Part shown: positions 1-3,650 of the stretch, in pieces
How the letters are laid out: each line of letters begins with the position of its first letter
How positions within the stretch are numbered: the stretch's first letter is position 1
IMG/VR virus record: IMGVR_UViG_2778261358_000016
Location: 1 to 14,074 of that record
Origin: a virus
Lineage: Duplodnaviria; Heunggongvirae; Uroviricota; Caudoviricetes
Reading direction: 5' to 3' (one strand)
DNA: 14,074 bases
Translations under genes and position numbers: made by a program
Notes under the pieces: generated by a model
Seen by the model: only the letters and a program-made list of their open reading frames with translations
What the model was told of the DNA's origin: nothing
Database searches by the model: none

Positions 1-71
1 ATGATATACATGTTGATTACACTATGCATCGACAACGATGCCACATTTTTGGCTGGTTGGCAAATCTGTCA

Positions 72-257
72 TCAGGGCGGACAACAACGCCACGATCTCA
101 TCTTTCTTGGGCAATTTTTAAGAAAATCCTCAAGGGCAAATCTTTTTGGCCTTGCTTCCTGTTCATGGTCAGGCATTTCATCCATTTCTCTTAATTTTTT
201 TTCTACCTGTCTTTCAAGTATGGATAATGCGATTTCCCGTAATTCTTCGTTGTTCAT
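72..257 (-). CDS. Hypothetical small protein (61 aa), the only leftward gene in the island; candidate regulator
   Basis: AGGAG Shine-Dalgarno about 7 nt upstream of the ATG at 257 (minus strand); divergent from the rightward operon and adjacent to operator-like dyads; no recognisable motif. Confidence 0.35.
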   Translation of the reverse strand: MNNEELREIALSILERQVEKKLREMDEMPDHEQEARPKRFALEDFLKNCPRKMRSWRCCPP

Positions 258-482
258 TGTCTACTCCTGTAAAGAAATGCGCCGTAGTTCCTCACACCAC
301 GGCGCTGATAGTTTTTATCCTTTGGGTTCTATGCCGCGTTGCTGTAATTCTTTGCGGATTATTCGCTTTATCCAGGCAGCAAGAGAATCATCGCCGTCCT
401 GTTGTTGTGCCTTTTCCATCTTTTCCCGTAAGTCAGGATCTAAACGGAACTGGAACGGAGGATTACCACGCCTTTCGTTTTT

Positions 483-543
483 GTGTATTGACACGTTAAT
501 TACACCTCATATAATGTATTTATGTGTAATGACACATTACACA
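483..543 (+). promoter_or_regulatory. Two operator-like sites sharing GTGTAWTGACACRTTA (483..498 and 524..539); second lies in a perfect 8-bp inverted repeat TGTGTAAT-N5-ATTACACA (523..543)
   Basis: Direct repeat of a 16-bp motif spaced 41 bp apart, one copy overlapping the -35 and one just downstream of the -10; dyad symmetry typical of dimeric repressor binding. Confidence 0.4.
488..515 (+). promoter_or_regulatory. Sigma70-type promoter with consensus -35 TTGACA (488..493) and -10 TATAAT (510..515), 16-bp spacer, driving the rightward small-gene operon
   Basis: Exact hexamer matches read directly from sequence; located about 110 bp upstream of the first rightward gene with a strong RBS. 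Confidence 0.5.
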
Positions 544-623
544 CAATCAACACAAAAAGCAAAGCCCCGCACTGTAGGAGCAGTAACGGGGCTTCTAACC
601 AACAACGTAAACTAGGAGCCGTT

Positions 624-821
624 ATGGTTGCCGTAAATCATATACCACACCTTGTACACACACAAACGGCCTTTGTGTGGCGTTTTCTGGCACTGAGTGC
701 CGGAGAATCTCAAATAATCCACGTAACCGCCTGGACGGAACGCGAAGCGCGTAACCGTTGCCCGTCAGGTTGTGTTGCTGTATTCGCCGCCCGTATTCGC
801 CAGGGGTCACATCATGCGTAA
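624..821 (+). CDS. Hypothetical small protein A (65 aa), paralog of the C-terminal part of the next gene
   Basis: AGGAG RBS 5 nt upstream of ATG; conserved blocks FVWRF and TEREAR...ARIRQG shared with ORF 814..1275, differing mainly at synonymous third positions. Confidence 0.55.
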   Translation: MVAVNHIPHLVHTQTAFVWRFLALSAGESQIIHVTAWTEREARNRCPSGCVAVFAARIRQGSHHA

Positions 822-1275
822 AAACCGCTTGCAAAAAATTATCACGGGGCTGTATGCTTCCCCCGTCGCCCACATGGCGACCGGGTTTAGCAGCCTGAAT
901 ACATCTGGCGGACAGCCGCCCACATCCGATAAGCGGTTTTTTTGTGTCCGTAAACCTACCCATACCCGCATTATGGCGGGGCGTAACGGGGGAGCCTTTG
1001 TGCTCGCTGGTTTCCAGATGACCAGTCTGCTAACCCTGTTACGTCTCGCCACCATGTTTAGCAGCGTAGTAGCGAGACTCCTTAAAATTCATCTGGGAGC
1101 CTTTCACATGGCTGTATCCGCACGCCCTTATTTTGTCTGGCGCTTTATGCAGTGCCTGACAGACAGCATTGCAATATTCACCGTTACCGCAGCCACTGAA
1201 CGCGAAGCACGCGCCCAGCTGCCGCACGCACATCTGATTTTTGTCGCCCGTATTCGTCAGGGGGTAGGCTTATGA
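814..1275 (+). CDS. Hypothetical protein B (153 aa) carrying a C-terminal copy of the protein A domain
   Basis: ATG at 814 overlaps the stop of gene A (ATGCGTAA); AGGGG RBS; C-terminal 60 aa align with protein A (FVWRF, VTAxTEREAR, ARIRQG). Confidence 0.5.
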   Translation: MRKNRLQKIITGLYASPVAHMATGFSSLNTSGGQPPTSDKRFFCVRKPTHTRIMAGRNGGAFVLAGFQMTSLLTLLRLATMFSSVVARLLKIHLGAFHMAVSARPYFVWRFMQCLTDSIAIFTVTAATEREARAQLPHAHLIFVARIRQGVGL

Positions 1276-1502
1276 GTCAGGAAATCACACTACAACAGGC
1301 AGCAGAACGCGCCCACCAAATCGAAGTTATTTGCGCACTGGCAGAGGATTACCCTGGCATGATGACCGACAGCGAATCAGGGGCAATCATCGGCTTACTT
1401 AAACGCCTTAGCGGTGAGGTCTGCGTATTCCTGAGCGATGAACAGGAAAGAAGAACGCTTATTTCTAACGAAAAAAAATGCGGAGGGGTACATGTGCAAT
1501 AA
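1272..1502 (+). CDS. Hypothetical small protein C (76 aa)
   Basis: ATG overlaps stop of gene B (TTATGA); G-rich RBS upstream; no recognisable motif. Confidence 0.45.
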   Translation: MSQEITLQQAAERAHQIEVICALAEDYPGMMTDSESGAIIGLLKRLSGEVCVFLSDEQERRTLISNEKKCGGVHVQ

Positions 1503-1722
1503 AACCACACCGGACGCAGCAGAAGAAGCAATGCAAATACTGATACGTGCGCTCGTTGATGTTACCCACATGGTGGAGATTATGGAGAGAAAATCACAGT
1601 CGGAGCACGACAAAAGAAAACTTAAAACAATAAAAATAATTGCCAAAAACTCGCTGATAAAAGTTACAGACATCCTTAATGAGGACATTAAAAGAATAAG
1701 GGAGAAAATTTGTGATGCATAA
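1492..1722 (+). CDS. Hypothetical small protein D (76 aa) in low-GC cassette
   Basis: GGAGGGG RBS 3-4 nt upstream of ATG at 1492; overlaps end of gene C; region about 37 percent GC by eye versus over 50 percent in flanks; Lys/Glu-rich, likely helical. Confidence 0.45.
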   Translation: MCNKTTPDAAEEAMQILIRALVDVTHMVEIMERKSQSEHDKRKLKTIKIIAKNSLIKVTDILNEDIKRIREKICDA

Positions 1723-1942
1723 AATCCCTTTTGAAGTATTAATCCACTCTGAAAACGCATTAATTAAAGCACGCGAAATGAATGCGTTGTTAATTAAATT
1801 AATTGAAGTGCCGGAAGGTGGTGAAGAATCAGGTGTATTAATGTTTGCAGCCATTCAGACATTACTATCGCCGGTTATTGATGAACTGGATAAGGCAATG
1901 GCAATTCACGAGAATAATAACTCGCCCCATACCGGAGAATAA
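1712..1942 (+). CDS. Hypothetical small protein E (76 aa) in low-GC cassette
   Basis: GTG/ATG start at 1712/1715 preceded by AAGGGAG; overlaps stop of gene D; same low-GC patch. Confidence 0.45.
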   Translation: MMHKIPFEVLIHSENALIKAREMNALLIKLIEVPEGGEESGVLMFAAIQTLLSPVIDELDKAMAIHENNNSPHTGE

Positions 1943-1947
1943 AAATA

Positions 1948-2247
1948 ATGAAACTTAAATATTCTGGCTTAACTGCCAGTGGCAAAACTCGCACTAAATT
2001 CATGCGCGGTGATATTTACCGCGACCAGTACGGCGGCACGGTAATGATTAAGGGCGTGGAGGAACGGCGCGTAACCTACCGTCGTGAAGGCTACGAATAT
2101 GATTGCGTGATGCCTGTTTATCAGTTCGACCGTGATTTTTCTCTGGTGCAGGCTGTACCGCGTAACGTTCCAACCAGCAGGGAGAAAGCACGCGCCAATA
2201 TTCAGGAAATAAGAAAGATGTTGAATGTATTCAGGGGTAAAAAATGA
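1948..2247 (+). CDS. Hypothetical small protein F (99 aa), translationally coupled to the replication helicase
   Basis: Stop TGA overlaps rep ATG (ATGA at 2244..2247); GGAG upstream; no recognisable motif. Confidence 0.5.
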   Translation: MKLKYSGLTASGKTRTKFMRGDIYRDQYGGTVMIKGVEERRVTYRREGYEYDCVMPVYQFDRDFSLVQAVPRNVPTSREKARANIQEIRKMLNVFRGKK

Positions 2248-3650
2248 AACTGGCACCGAACGTAAAACTGTTACCGAAAGATAAACACACTGAGGCGGTT
2301 ATTTTTGCGGGTGATAATGCTCACTCCTTTGCAGAACATTACATGATTGCACAGGCCAAAAAAGCAGGCGATCCCATCCCTCCGGTTTACCTGGGCCGTT
2401 ATCAGTTAAGCGAACTGGACAATTTACAGATTGTTGATGAAGGACGATACAGAGCAAAGGTCATACGCGCCGGAAACCTGGACGATATGCAGATGCTGAC
2501 CATTGCCACCAAACTGGCGATCGCAGGTGTCCGGGAAGCGCGGTTACTTTCAGAGAATTTCGAACTACTGGAGGACTGGAGCGAGCAACTACCGCGACTT
2601 AAAGAAACCTGGGAACGCGGGGAAAGTCTGGTCATGAATGGCGTAAAGCGAAAAATCACACTTCCCATCTCATGGGGTTCTGAGGGATTCGACGCGCAGC
2701 AAAGCTACGTAATTAAGGGGCTTATTCCGGCTGAATCATTATGCAGCACCTACGGGGCCAGCGGTTCTTATAAATTGTTCCTGGCTATTTCCTGGTCGTG
2801 CCATGTTGCCACAGGTATGGCATGGGGAGGCCGCAGGGTAAGTAAGGGCGCGGTTATCTATATCGCTGGCGAAGGCAGTATGGGCGTAAAACGCCGCGTT
2901 AAGGCGTGGGAGATAACCCACGACAAGGTGGTTACGGATTTGTGCATCGTTAACGCGCCTGTCTTCCCTGCATCGCCTGACTATGTGGAGCAGGTTATCA
3001 GGACTGCCGGACTTGTTAAGAGCAGAACGGGCGAAAATGTGCGGCTGATTGTGATCGACACGCTGGCCCGTTGCTTTGGTGGGAATGATGAAAATGATTC
3101 CCGTGATATGGGCGCATTTATCCAGGGGTGTGACGCGATAAAGCAGGCCACAGGGGCCACGGTACTGGTGGTTCACCATTCCGGCAAGGATGAAACAAAG
3201 GGGGCGCGAGGTTCCAGCGCATTCCGCGCTGCACTGGATGCAGAGTACCGAATCAGCCGGGAAAATTCAGACGTTACAGCACTGGTGGCGGCGTGTACGA
3301 AGATGAAAGACGCAGAGGAGCCAAAAGAGAGCGCATACGACCTTAAAAGCGTGGAGGTGTTTACCGATACCGATGGCGAAGAGATTGTGTCCATGGTGGT
3401 GATTGACGTTCCCCGCGCCCCTGCTGAACTGGAGCGCATAGAGGAGGCCGGGAACAAGACGGAAAATCACACGGCTTTATGGGGTTGTATCCGGTCACGT
3501 ATACAGCATGGTGATAAATGCACGATCCCGCTGCTACGTGATGACATGAAAAAGCTGGGATATGACACAAAACACCTTAAACGATGGTTAGCCAAACTGG
3601 AAAAAGACGGCGTGATTTGCGTCGATGGGGATGATGTTCACCCACTGTAA
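2244..3650 (+). CDS. Replication protein, RepA-like RecA-fold helicase (AAA_25 family) with N-terminal and C-terminal extra domains
   Basis: Motifs resembling RSF1010 RepA-type helicases: GASGSYKLFLAISW (P-loop region, deviant), VIYIAGEGS, VIDTLARCF (Walker B-like), VLVVHHSGKDETKGARGSSAF (HH..K and RGSS motifs); iteron array immediately downstream. Confidence 0.7.
   Translation: MKLAPNVKLLPKDKHTEAVIFAGDNAHSFAEHYMIAQAKKAGDPIPPVYLGRYQLSELDNLQIVDEGRYRAKVIRAGNLDDMQMLTIATKLAIAGVREARLLSENFELLEDWSEQLPRLKETWERGESLVMNGVKRKITLPISWGSEGFDAQQSYVIKGLIPAESLCSTYGASGSYKLFLAISWSCHVATGMAWGGRRVSKGAVIYIAGEGSMGVKRRVKAWEITHDKVVTDLCIVNAPVFPASPDYVEQVIRTAGLVKSRTGENVRLIVIDTLARCFGGNDENDSRDMGAFIQGCDAIKQATGATVLVVHHSGKDETKGARGSSAFRAALDAEYRISRENSDVTALVAACTKMKDAEEPKESAYDLKSVEVFTDTDGEEIVSMVVIDVPRAPAELERIEEAGNKTENHTALWGCIRSRIQHGDKCTIPLLRDDMKKLGYDTKHLKRWLAKLEKDGVICVDGDDVHPL

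What the first reader, a model, noticed from the sequence alone, without database searches (positions are those of the whole stretch)
483..594. Regulatory switch: consensus promoter bracketed by two operator dyads, plus a structured leader
A textbook sigma70 promoter (TTGACA-16-TATAAT) is overlapped at -35 and followed just after -10 by two copies of GTGTAWTGACACRTTA, the second inside a perfect 8-bp inverted repeat. Downstream, the leader contains an 8-bp stem AAGCCCCG...CGGGGCTT (562..594). This looks like a repressor-controlled early promoter, which would set island induction. The only leftward gene (72..257) is the obvious candidate repressor, but it has no recognisable HTH.
Basis: seen in the sequence. 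Interest (0 to 1): 0.5.

Follow-up and report, generated by a model that had tools for sequence, protein, structure and literature searches.

The report
Repressor-controlled promoter switch with antisense RNA

Summary
The window is an E. coli capsid-forming phage-inducible chromosomal island (cf-PICI).

The interpretation needs three corrections:
- **Repressor.** The best candidate is not the 61-aa gene (72-257). It is an overlooked 59-aa leftward gene (494→315) with ribbon-helix-helix (RHH) topology. Its start codon lies inside the -35 hexamer. Across 72 related loci the operator sequence changes with this protein's N-terminal strand, not with AlpA.
- **Hairpin.** In 46 homologues the 562-594 helix is 97% paired as a leftward RNA (79 G·U cells) and 84% as a rightward RNA (1 G·U). 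A U-tract follows on the minus strand. A TAnnnT -10 lies at a fixed distance in 55 of 56 sequences. This predicts a roughly 80-nt antisense RNA (about 630→552) covering the ribosome-binding site and start codon of the first rightward gene, an Icd-like gene.
- **-10 hexamer.** TATAAT comes from one base (A511). The nearest relatives have G there (TGTAAT), and the family norm is TA(A/G)TGT with an 18-bp spacer.

The closest analogues by logic are P22 immI and pMV158 CopG/RNAII. All function is inferred from sequence. The switch could be the unidentified repressor of Gram-negative PICIs.

The parts
315..494 (-). 59-aa ribbon-helix-helix-like protein, the candidate repressor. GTG start at 494-492; Shine-Dalgarno GAGGTG at 510-505.
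   Evidence: ORF listed. 117 homologous protein clusters, mostly 59 aa, in Enterobacterales, Orbales and Pasteurellales. Codon-position diversity 0.19/0.09/0.49; 655 synonymous against 278 non-synonymous codon changes. AF2 model: extended N-terminus plus helices 20-33 and 38-52, pLDDT 75. Top PDB fold hits are NikR, Arc, MazE, CopG, ParD and VapB, each with E about 1 or weaker. Weak NCBIfam YlcI/YnfO and VapB hits. RefSeq annotates the gene in close relatives.
483..505 (.). Operator O1: 12-bp core GTGTATTGACAC (483-494) plus an ATTACAC half-site (499-505). Overlaps the -35 hexamer and the repressor's start codon.
   Evidence: Conserved blocks TGTGTgTTGACAC and AATTACAC in 43 unique group-1 promoter regions. 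Replaced by other palindromes in loci with a different RHH strand.
488..517 (+). Rightward promoter P_R: -35 TTGACA 488-493; -10 TATAAT 510-515 (16-bp spacer), overlapping the family-type -10 TAATGT 512-517 (18-bp spacer). Predicted start near 522-524.
   Evidence: Family consensus. A511 is specific to this window.
524..542 (.). Operator O2: perfect 19-bp palindrome GTGTAATG-ACA-CATTACAC. The 12-bp core is GTGTnATnACAC at 524-535. It covers about +1 to +20 of P_R and the candidate -10 of the leftward promoter.
   Evidence: It is the most conserved non-coding block, with the pattern GTGTnATnACAC followed by ATTAC.
534..562 (-). Candidate leftward promoter P_L for the repressor gene: -35 TTGCTT 562-557, 17-bp spacer, -10 TAATGT 539-534. 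Predicted start near 527. This part is inferred.
   Evidence: PWM score 6.5 bits. In group 1, ACATTA and the CAA of nnnCAA are conserved, the spacer between them is not, and the alignment opens no gaps there in most rows (the 17-bp count was made by eye in four sequences). The Shine-Dalgarno and start codon lie under P_R, so the mRNA must begin to the right of 510 (sequence).
551..594 (-). Intrinsic terminator of a leftward RNA: helix 594-562 followed on the minus strand by UUUGCUUUUUG (561-551).
   Evidence: Terminator-like call on the minus strand. The minus-strand fold is more stable in 53 of 56 homologues, mean -20.4 against -16.8 kcal/mol. The helix is 97.0% paired as leftward RNA with 79 G.U cells, against 83.9% and 1 G.U as rightward RNA. 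8 of its 13 pairs show changes on both sides.
552..630 (-). Predicted cis-antisense small RNA of about 79 nt. It comprises stem-loop 1 (623-604, anti-Shine-Dalgarno CUCCU in the loop), the conserved linker UGGUUAGA, and the terminator. It is complementary to the 5' UTR, ribosome-binding site and first codons of the Icd-like gene.
   Evidence: RNAalifold consensus on 46 sequences. 96.9% of cells paired, 13 pairs with double changes, 0 of 500 shuffles as high. The covariance model hits one site per module on the minus strand only, including L003 and the second L005 module, which were not in the training alignment (52-59 bits). No Rfam family matches.
637..665 (-). Candidate promoter of the antisense RNA (P_as): -35 TTGTGT 665-660, 17-bp spacer, -10 TATGAT 642-637.
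   Evidence: Best minus-strand PWM hit in 400-900, 9.6 bits. TAnnnT lies 48-54 nt from the GGTTAGA linker in 55 of 56 unique homologues. The middle bases vary and the encoded residues differ.
624..821 (+). Icd-like protein 1 (65 aa), the first gene of the rightward unit and the target of the antisense RNA.
   Evidence: NCBIfam NF033153, 64.8 bits against a cut-off of 25. RefSeq annotation in relatives.
852..943 (+). Downstream control layer: C4 target a1b1 (852-901) and an isrK-like element ending in an intrinsic terminator (hairpin 914-938, T-run to 943).
   Evidence: Rfam c4-a1b1 45.5 bits (gathering score 46.7) and isrK 36.8 bits (gathering score 50), both below threshold.
969..1056 (+). 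C4-type antisense (immunity) RNA, followed by Icd-like gene 2 (1108-1275).
   Evidence: Rfam RF01695 72.7 bits, E 6.7e-13. Icd-like 2 scores 53.8 bits.

Best explanation
This is the regulatory switch at the head of the early (rightward) genes of a capsid-forming phage-inducible chromosomal island.

Shown from sequence:
- A strong sigma-70-type promoter, P_R, faces right.
- Its -35 hexamer is also the start codon of a divergent 59-aa ribbon-helix-helix-like gene.
- Two copies of a 12-bp palindromic core (GTGTnATnACAC) are present. O1 sits over the -35. O2 sits over the start site.

Inferred:
- Dimers of the 59-aa protein bind O1 and O2. O1 occludes the -35 and O2 blocks the start region.
- O2 also covers the -10 of the protein's own candidate face-to-face promoter, P_L, so the repressor would limit its own synthesis.
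- A second layer acts after transcription. A roughly 80-nt RNA is made leftward from a promoter inside the first codons of the Icd-like gene. It carries the anti-Shine-Dalgarno sequence in a loop and ends at the 562-594 hairpin plus U-tract.
- By pairing with the 5' end of any P_R transcript, this RNA would block translation of the Icd-like protein and may promote decay or termination of the transcript.
- A third layer lies further downstream: C4 RNA, its targets and a terminator.
- Operator sequence and repressor reading strand come in matched sets, so the module would define immunity types.
- How a helper phage relieves repression is not known. Two options are an anti-repressor, or AlpA-driven read-through from the convergent alpA gene.
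For: - The promoter and repeats are present and non-random.
- Context is a cf-PICI: int, alpA, Icd-like genes, RepA helicase, SSB, HK97 capsid module, terminase, no tail genes.
- The 59-aa gene is real: 117 clusters, a coding substitution pattern, and RefSeq annotation in relatives.
- Its fold matches RHH topology: strand, helix, helix, with RHH proteins heading the PDB fold hits.
- In 72 loci from more than 30 genera, the -35 TTGACA(C/T) coincides with the repressor's GTG or ATG.
- Operators co-vary with the N-terminal strand:
  - PFQFRLD goes with GTGTnATnACAC.
  - YQ(M/I)RL goes with T(G/T)GTAATTAC(C/A)A, twice, at the same two positions.
  - A YlcI/YnfO-type protein goes with GTGTTCAACAC, three times.
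- Double dissociation from AlpA:
  - Window against L002: AlpA 98% identical, repressor 58%, operators differ.
  - Window against L003: AlpA 31%, repressor 98%, operators the same.
- Conserved blocks in 43 promoter regions are exactly O1, the -35, the -10 and O2.
- Antisense RNA: strand-specific G.U pattern and covariation, a U-tract, a conserved TAnnnT at fixed distance, and a single minus-strand model hit per module.
- The leftward operon ends at a strong terminator just outside the window.
- The literature states that a global repressor of Gram-negative PICIs is unidentified (PMC6092414). YlcI/YnfO and HicB-like genes are listed only as accessory genes (PMC13612085).
Against: - There are no expression, transcription-start or binding data. 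Everything functional is inferred.
- RHH assignment rests on topology and weak scores: Foldseek E about 1, NCBIfam 20 bits against a cut-off of 30, no Pfam hit, no PDB sequence hit.
- The AF2 monomer shows no strand, which is expected for a fold that forms its sheet only as a dimer.
- P_L and P_as are weak by PWM (6.5 and 9.6 bits) and their -35 elements are poor.
- Part of O1's conservation could come from coding constraint and the -35. Part of O2's symmetry could come from two facing -10 elements.
- The compared loci are related by descent.
- In the window itself the hairpin has only Watson-Crick pairs, so its strand cannot be read from this one sequence (-19.3 against -20.1 kcal/mol).
- Published work attributes induction of Gram-negative PICIs to the activator AlpA, with no repressor needed so far.
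Confidence: 0.62

Rival explanations
1. P_R is repressed by the 61-aa product of 72-257, and the 562-594 hairpin is a structured 5' leader of the rightward mRNA.
For: The 61-aa gene lies in the same leftward operon, which ends in a terminator. The complement of the helix can also fold in the rightward RNA (-19.3 kcal/mol in the window).
Against: Genes downstream of the RHH gene differ or are absent in relatives, while the promoter, operators and RHH gene stay together. The 61-aa protein matches no family. The helix shows 79 G.U cells on the leftward strand against 1 on the rightward strand. Paired cells fall to 83.9% on the rightward strand.
Confidence: 0.05
2. P_R is an essentially constitutive immunity promoter like P4 P_LE or P1 P51a. 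The dyads serve only autoregulation of the small leftward gene, or merely reflect two overlapping face-to-face promoters. Silencing of downstream genes is done by the RNAs (antisense RNA, C4 and the terminator).
For: C4 RNA, its targets and a terminator lie downstream. Mageeney et al. describe RNA immunity in the same zone of Gram-negative PICIs (PMC10111431). The -10 elements of P_R and the candidate P_L form an inverted repeat.
Against: O1 sits on the -35 of P_R and far inside the leftward transcript, which is a poor position for autoregulation alone. In other immunity types two identical 12-bp palindromes flank the P_R -10 at the same positions. A separate candidate promoter (829-858) could supply C4 without P_R.
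Confidence: 0.17
3. The 59-aa protein is an antitoxin-like partner of the Icd-like protein, in the manner of a type II toxin-antitoxin pair. The operators mediate conditional autoregulation rather than island immunity.
For: Weak VapB antitoxin hit. JGI names some members HicB-like. Fold hits include MazE, ParD, VapB and AtaR. P1 Icd is a cell-division inhibitor (established knowledge). Helix 2 and the C-terminal tail are nearly invariant across operator types, which could be a partner-binding surface.
Against: The genes are divergent, not co-transcribed. The tail after helix 2 is only about 7 residues. The first rightward gene is not always Icd-like, for example 189-aa proteins in Xenorhabdus, while the switch is retained.
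Confidence: 0.08
4. The long plus-strand ORF that PGAP annotates across the region (286 aa in FORC_042, reaching window position 615) is the real gene, and the small leftward ORFs are shadows.
For: PGAP annotates it in some genomes. The antisense frame stays open over the RHH gene in 52 of 72 loci.
Against: In that frame, codon position 1 rather than position 2 is the least variable, and synonymous and non-synonymous changes are about equal (476/460). The RHH frame gives 655/278. The translation is Cys/Ser-rich with no family hit. It would run through a promoter, operators and a terminator. Other RefSeq genomes annotate the leftward genes instead.
Confidence: 0.03

Closest known systems
Phage P22 immI region (Mnt and Arc repressors, Pant/Pmnt promoters, sar antisense RNA)
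   Same: Small ribbon-helix-helix repressors act on operators that overlap a very strong promoter. The repressor gene is transcribed in the opposite direction from an overlapping promoter. A roughly 70-nt cis-antisense RNA covers the ribosome-binding site of a downstream gene. Basis: established knowledge, with primary references listed in PMC2629481. Arc is the second-ranked fold hit.
   Different: No detectable sequence homology to Arc or Mnt. Here one repressor gene is seen rather than two. Its start codon is embedded in the -35 hexamer. The antisense RNA targets the first gene (Icd-like), not an antirepressor. The host element is a satellite, and a C4-type RNA layer follows.
Plasmid pMV158 copy control (CopG RHH repressor plus antisense RNAII)
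   Same: Dual control of a replication operon. An RHH repressor binds a pseudo-symmetric element at the promoter. A short counter-transcript with its own terminator blocks translation. Basis: PMC2724298 (abstract seen) and established knowledge. CopG is among the fold hits.
   Different: CopG is co-transcribed with its target gene, whereas here the repressor is divergent. The first regulated gene here is Icd-like, and the replication genes lie further downstream behind another terminator.
P1/P7 immI, the P4 immunity region and the N15 antirepressor locus (C4/CI/CA RNAs)
   Same: The operon begins with a promoter followed by Icd-like genes and a C4-family RNA with upstream and downstream targets. 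This layer was already noted in Gram-negative PICIs (PMC10111431). P1's P51b is also repressor-controlled (established knowledge).
   Different: C4 and CI are processed from the sense transcript and act on sites in the same transcript. The RNA proposed here is a true counter-transcript with its own promoter and terminator, and it matches no Rfam family. The repressor is an RHH protein, not P1 C1.
SaPI/PICI master repressor Stl (Rpr) of Gram-positive islands
   Same: A divergently transcribed repressor at the boundary between the integrase side and the replication side of a phage satellite (PMC6092414).
   Different: Stl proteins are larger helix-turn-helix proteins inactivated by helper-phage proteins. 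No inducer is known here, and Gram-negative PICIs are reported to depend on the activator AlpA.

Membership tests
Sigma-70 promoter | -35 TTGACA and -10 TATAAT hexamers separated by 16-18 bp | tested here: met
   12/12 match at 488-515. 0 of 200 shuffles contain one. In relatives the -10 is TA(A/G)TGT with an 18-bp spacer.
Sigma-70 promoter | Transcription initiates there in vivo | not testable with these tools
   Needs 5' RACE, dRNA-seq or a reporter fusion.
Ribbon-helix-helix (Arc/MetJ/CopG) repressors | Strand-helix-helix fold of about 45 residues | tested here: inconclusive
   AF2 gives an extended N-terminus plus two helices (20-33, 38-52), pLDDT 75. Most Foldseek PDB hits, including the top five, are RHH proteins (NikR, Arc, MazE, CopG, ParD, VapB), with TM 0.57-0.64 for the best but every E-value about 1 or weaker. 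No Pfam hit and no PDB sequence hit.
Ribbon-helix-helix (Arc/MetJ/CopG) repressors | The N-terminal strand determines DNA specificity; operators are short repeated or palindromic subsites overlapping the promoter | tested here: met
   Variation in the strand motif (PFQFRLD, YQMRLP, YQIRLA, KQIALRVE) tracks the operator sequence. Helix 2 stays nearly invariant. The subsites overlap the -35 and +1. This is comparative evidence only.
Ribbon-helix-helix (Arc/MetJ/CopG) repressors | Dimer formation and DNA binding | not testable with these tools
   Needs EMSA or footprinting, or a dimer-DNA structure.
YlcI/YnfO family (NCBIfam NF041551) | Score at or above the curated cut-off of 30 bits | tested here: not met
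   20.0 bits, E 5e-4. RefSeq nevertheless names the protein of a 97.8%-identical locus, WP_000103622.1 (98% identical to the window's where that same accession was translated), as YlcI/YnfO. Treated as a distant relative, not a member.
Intrinsic (Rho-independent) terminator | G+C-rich hairpin immediately followed by a U-tract on the transcribed strand | tested here: met
   On the minus strand the helix 594-562 is followed by UUUGCUUUUUG. The helix is supported by covariation and G.U pairs on that strand only. On the plus strand it is followed by CUAACCA, with no U-tract (sequence).
Cis-encoded antisense small RNA (sar, CopA, RNAII type) | Own promoter, own terminator, and complementarity to a translation-initiation region, often presented in a loop | tested here: met
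   TAnnnT at fixed distance in 55 of 56 sequences. Terminator as above. Anti-Shine-Dalgarno sequence in the loop of stem-loop 1, whose four pairs all show compensatory changes.
Cis-encoded antisense small RNA (sar, CopA, RNAII type) | The RNA is actually expressed and regulates its target | not testable with these tools
   Needs a Northern blot, strand-specific RNA-seq or promoter mutants.
Rfam C4 / isrK / c4-a1b1 clan | Covariance-model score at or above the gathering threshold for the 546-631 element | tested here: not met
   No clan hit at 546-631 on either strand, even at E up to 10. The window's C4 member lies elsewhere, at 969-1056 (72.7 bits).
Capsid-forming PICI (context) | int and alpA, a replication module, a full capsid and packaging module, no tail genes, about 15 kb | tested here: met
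   RefSeq annotation of the 99.8%-identical locus in FORC_042, between roxA and phoQ. Definition from bioRxiv 10.1101/2022.09.08.507074. Mobilisation by a helper phage was not tested.

The most novel reading that the evidence does not exclude
The 59-aa RHH protein, its paired operators and the counter-transcript together are the missing master repressor switch of Gram-negative PICIs and cf-PICIs, and of related P4-like satellites. It would be functionally equivalent to Stl of SaPIs. It would come in interchangeable immunity types that set which islands can coexist and which helper phages can induce them. AlpA would act upstream, by read-through or antitermination, rather than being the sole regulator.
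Probability: 0.3. Interest if true: 0.75.

Novelty: new variant of a known kind. Interest (0 to 1): 0.6.

Why it matters
In Gram-positive PICIs the Stl repressor explains quiescence and helper specificity. [quoted passage not shown]

A conserved repressor, operator and antisense-RNA module sits between alpA and the early genes. That gives a concrete, testable candidate for what keeps these islands silent. It also suggests immunity types and flags an unannotated small RNA family.

The work also corrects database annotation. A 286-aa shadow ORF and "Icd-like pseudogenes" are called over the real small genes. It shows as well that this strain carries a one-base change making the -10 hexamer a perfect consensus match, which might alter island behaviour.

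Tried and rejected
- **Phage DNA search.** Megablast of window 1-3000 against the phage collection gave no match. tblastn with the 59-aa protein found only 4 phage records. The module therefore belongs to chromosomal satellites, not typical phages.
- **Family searches.** Pfam scans of both small leftward proteins gave nothing. A PDB sequence-profile search gave only chance hits to NsrR.
- **61-aa gene as repressor.** Rejected because it is not conserved with the module.
- **AlpA as the operator-binding protein.** Rejected by the double dissociation.
- **Long plus-strand ORF as the real gene.** Disfavoured by the substitution pattern, although its frame stays open in many relatives.
- **Hairpin as a mini-C4 or C4 target.** The leader shares ACGGGGC and CUAACC in the same sense as the C4 a2/b2 segments. 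I found no convincing complementarity and no Rfam hit, so I left it as an unexplained resemblance.
- **LexA box in the hairpin loop.** The spacing does not fit CTG-N10-CAG (by eye).
- **Leftward promoter choice.** Several alternative hexamer pairs score similarly. I chose the pair whose two hexamers are conserved at a gap-free spacing in the group-1 alignment, and it remains tentative.
- **Literature.** Searches for an RHH repressor in PICIs, for YlcI/YnfO function, and for small RNAs in CP-933C found no characterisation.
Full report

Yes. The window carries TTGACA (488-493), a 16-bp spacer and TATAAT (510-515), a 12/12 consensus match. That pattern occurs once in the window and in none of 200 dinucleotide-preserving shuffles. 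GTGTAWTGACACRTTA occurs exactly twice, at 483-498 and 524-539, against 0.02 expected.

The second copy lies in a perfect 8-bp inverted repeat, extendable to 12 nt at 92%. The 8-bp stem at 562-569 / 587-594 is also present. A relaxed operator core, GTGTNWTNACAC, is found nowhere else in the 14 kb.

**2. What is the element?**

The region is 99.8% identical to chromosomal loci in E. coli. In strain FORC_042 the element lies between roxA and phoQ. It carries the following genes:
- integrase and a 62-aa AlpA-type regulator;
- two Icd-like genes, DUF4222, a RepA-family helicase, SSB and PerC;
- an HK97 capsid, protease, portal, adaptors, HNH, TerS and TerL;
- no tail genes.

This is the gene set of a capsid-forming PICI as defined in bioRxiv 10.1101/2022.09.08.507074.

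**3. A missed gene.**

A 59-aa ORF runs leftward from GTG 494 to 315. Its start codon is inside the -35 hexamer, because TTGACAC reads GTGTCAA on the other strand. A GAGGTG Shine-Dalgarno sequence lies at 510-505.

Evidence that the gene is real:
- 117 protein clusters, mostly 59 aa long, across Enterobacterales, Orbales and Pasteurellales.
- Codon-position diversity of 0.19/0.09/0.49, with 655 synonymous against 278 non-synonymous codon changes.
- The shadow plus-strand frame that PGAP annotates in some genomes gives 476/460.
- Other RefSeq genomes annotate the leftward gene, one of them as "YlcI/YnfO family".

Evidence on the fold:
- NCBIfam gives only weak YlcI/YnfO (20 bits, cut-off 30) and VapB hits. 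Pfam gives none.
- AF2 predicts an extended N-terminus followed by helices 20-33 and 38-52 (pLDDT 75).
- Foldseek against the PDB returns mostly ribbon-helix-helix proteins, including its top five hits: NikR, Arc, MazE, CopG, ParD, VapB, AtaR. TM-scores for the best are 0.57-0.64, but every E-value is about 1 or weaker.

I treat RHH as the likely fold, not as proven.

**4. Comparative test of the operator idea.**

An alignment of family members was used to fetch 72 loci from more than 30 genera. In virtually all of them the repressor's ATG or GTG coincides with a TTGACA(C/T) -35 on the opposite strand.

In 43 unique promoter regions of the PFQFRLD subgroup the conserved blocks are as follows:
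- TGTGTgTTGACAC, which is O1 plus the -35;
- AATTACAC;
- TA(A/G)TGT, 18 bp after the -35;
- TATGTGTnATnACACATTAC, which is O2.

The segments between these blocks vary. The operator core is therefore a 12-bp palindrome, GTGTnA|TnACAC.

Loci whose protein has a different N-terminal strand carry different palindromes at the same two positions, one abutting the -35 and one just after the -10:

| N-terminal strand | Loci | Operator |
|---|---|---|
| PFQFRLD | window, L003, L005 first module | GTGTnATnACAC |
| YQMRLP | E. coli L002, L004 | TGGTAATTACC(C/A), twice |
| YQIRLA | L052, L053 | TTGTAATTACAA, twice |
| YlcI/YnfO-type | L005 second module | GTGTTCAACAC, three times |

All but the YlcI/YnfO type keep the frame xxGTnATnACxx. 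Helix 2 of the protein is nearly invariant.

AlpA does not track the operators:

| Comparison | AlpA identity | Repressor identity | Operators |
|---|---|---|---|
| Window against L002 | 98% | 58% | differ |
| Window against L003 | 31% | 98% | same |

**5. The hairpin belongs to the other strand.**

The 562-594 helix is conserved in nearly all loci, with the consensus AAAAnCAACGCCCCG-nAGTGC-nGGA-ACACT-nnCGrGGCGT-CTAACCA.
- Folding each of 56 unique sequences in both orientations, the leftward RNA is more stable in 53. The means are -20.4 and -16.8 kcal/mol.
- On a 46-sequence alignment in leftward orientation, RNAalifold finds two hairpins.
- Over the whole 20-pair structure, 96.9% of cells pair and 13 pairs show changes on both sides. 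None of 500 shuffles reaches any observed measure, and sliding the partners drops pairing to 38-46%.
- The terminator helix is 97.0% paired as leftward RNA with 79 G.U cells. As rightward RNA it is 83.9% paired with a single G.U. C.A mismatches in one orientation are G.U pairs in the other, which is the classical indicator of strand.

On the minus strand the helix is followed by UUUGCUUUUUG. On the plus strand it is followed by CUAACCA.

A TAnnnT hexamer lies 48-54 nt upstream of the conserved GGTTAGA linker on the minus strand in 55 of 56 unique sequences. The variants include TATGAT, TATGCT, TAGACT, TACACT, TAAACT, TACCAT and TATAAT. The distance holds even where the Icd-like start codon is shifted and the encoded residues differ. 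In the window this is TATGAT 642-637 with TTGTGT 665-660, the best minus-strand promoter score in the region at 9.6 bits.

Together these predict a counter-transcript of about 80 nt, from about 630 to about 552:
- Its first hairpin (623-604) displays the anti-Shine-Dalgarno CUCCU in the loop.
- It is complementary to the 5' UTR, ribosome-binding site and first codons of the Icd-like gene at 624-821.

A covariance model built from the alignment hits once per module and only on the minus strand. The hits include two sites not used for training, at 52 and 59 bits. No Rfam family matches this element.

In the window itself the helix is all Watson-Crick.

**6. The repressor's own promoter (inferred).**

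The Shine-Dalgarno sequence and start codon lie beneath P_R, so the repressor mRNA must start to the right of 510. The best-supported candidate is TTGCTT (562-557), a 17-bp spacer and TAATGT (539-534).

In the PFQFRLD group both hexamers are conserved and the spacer sequence between them is not. The alignment opens no gaps across it in most rows. I counted the spacer as 17 bp by eye in four sequences. Its -10 mirrors the family -10 of P_R.

The two promoters would face each other, with starts a few bases apart and the O2 core between them. This is a weak PWM hit (6.5 bits) and is tentative.

The leftward unit ends at a strong terminator just outside the window (L001 15746-15727).

**7. What P_R feeds into.**

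Downstream on the plus strand lie, in order:
- Icd-like 1 (64.8 bits);
- a near-threshold match to the C4 target a1b1 (852-901);
- an isrK-like element ending in a terminator (to 943);
- a C4 RNA (969-1056, 72.7 bits);
- Icd-like 2 (1108-1275), then the replication genes.

RNA immunity of this type has been noted in the same zone of Gram-negative PICIs (PMC10111431). A separate candidate promoter at 829-858 (9.0 bits) could supply the C4 layer independently of P_R.

**8. The "textbook" -10 is a one-base peculiarity.**

Over 1051 bp (E110019) and 451 bp (FORC_042), the only difference from the window is position 511. The window has A and the relatives have G, which gives TGTAAT. The family norm is TA(A/G)TGT with an 18-bp spacer. 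This strain therefore carries a -10 that has become a perfect consensus match.

**9. Mechanism and confidence.**

Shown by sequence and comparison:
- the promoter and the paired palindromes;
- the repressor start codon within the -35;
- co-variation of protein and operator;
- a strand-specific RNA structure with a U-tract and a conserved -10.

Inferred:
- RHH dimers bind O1 and O2 and repress P_R.
- They autoregulate through O2.
- The counter-transcript blocks translation of the Icd-like gene.
- The module sets immunity type.

Unknown: how a helper phage relieves repression. AlpA is required for induction of the prototype cf-PICI and is an antiterminator in Pseudomonas (PMC7969949, listed). 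The alpA gene here converges on the repressor operon with no strong plus-strand terminator between them, so read-through interference is possible but speculative.

Overall confidence in the integrated model is about 0.6. Confidence in the antisense RNA and terminator is about 0.8. Confidence that the RHH protein is the operator-binding repressor of P_R is about 0.7.

**10. Comparison and novelty.**

The logic most resembles P22 immI: the RHH repressors Mnt and Arc, the strong Pant with the overlapping opposed Pmnt, and the sar antisense RNA (references in PMC2629481). It also resembles pMV158 CopG with RNAII (PMC2724298). There is no detectable sequence homology to either, so this is "works like", not membership.

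In the PICI literature a global repressor for Gram-negative elements is described as unclear (PMC6092414). YlcI/YnfO and HicB-like genes are listed only as accessory genes (PMC13612085). My searches found no description of this repressor family or of the counter-transcript.

I rate it a new variant of a known kind of switch, of moderate to good interest.

Noticed in passing
window 511: A511 is the only difference from the two closest E. coli relatives over 451 and 1051 bp; they have G. It turns TGTAAT into the perfect TATAAT, which looks like a promoter-up change specific to this strain. An independent TATAAT occurs in the decayed first module of L005.
   Followed up: partly
window 852-1056: A C4-family antisense RNA (969-1056, 72.7 bits) is preceded by a near-threshold a1b1 target (852-901) and an isrK-like terminator element (865-943). 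A candidate promoter, TTGCAA-18-TATGCT at 829-858, could drive this layer independently of P_R.
   Followed up: partly
window 624-821 and 1108-1275: Two paralogous Icd-like genes are present. One lies before the C4 RNA and one after it. The second lies in frame within a longer GTG ORF (772-1275) that contains the C4 RNA.
   Followed up: no
window 279-305 (minus strand): A conserved 10-bp-stem hairpin lies between the repressor's stop codon and the 61-aa gene, followed by AUUUCUUUAC. It could be an attenuator or a processing site. The surrounding roughly 60 bp (window 254-312) match many otherwise unrelated E. coli loci at about 83%, so it may mark a module junction.
   Followed up: no
window 659-689 (plus strand): A terminator-like hairpin, CACACAAA-CGGCC-TTTGTGTG followed by GCGTTTTCTG, lies inside the Icd-like 1 coding sequence. 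It overlaps the candidate -35 of the antisense promoter. It may be only a coding constraint (the FVWRF motif) or an attenuator.
   Followed up: no
L001 15506-16366; L002 2119-2712; L004 2197-2712: PGAP annotates a long plus-strand 'hypothetical' or 'Icd-like, incomplete' ORF across the leftward genes, the promoter and the terminator in some genomes. In others it annotates the two small leftward genes. The long ORF is probably a shadow-frame artefact.
   Followed up: yes
L005 2500-3640: Two complete switch modules lie in tandem. The first is a PFQFRLD-type repressor with a mutated O2 (GTGTATATACAC) and a broken downstream ORF. The second is a YlcI/YnfO-type repressor with GTGTTCAACAC operators next to the intact Icd-like gene. 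This looks like immunity-module replacement by insertion.
   Followed up: partly
A1 alignment; repressor residues 33-58: Helix 2 and the C-terminal tail (DGD..S..WIKRIIRKELQQRGIEPK) are almost invariant across subgroups whose N-terminal strand and operators differ. This could be a shared oligomerisation surface or a partner (inducer) surface.
   Followed up: no
L024-L034 (Xenorhabdus) and other loci, first rightward ORF: The first 12 or so codons (MA..QHxQTRPKF) are conserved at the nucleotide level even where the rest of the protein is unrelated, for example 189-aa proteins. This fits a DNA- or RNA-level constraint from the antisense promoter rather than protein function.
   Followed up: partly
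window 562-605 against 980-1045: The plus-strand leader shares GTAACGGGG and CTAACC in the same sense as the a2- and b2-like segments of the downstream C4 RNA. The loop motif TAGGAGCAGTAACGG (575-589) repeats the Icd-like ribosome-binding region TAGGAGCCGTTATGG (613-627). This may be a trace of module duplication. It remains unexplained.
   Followed up: no
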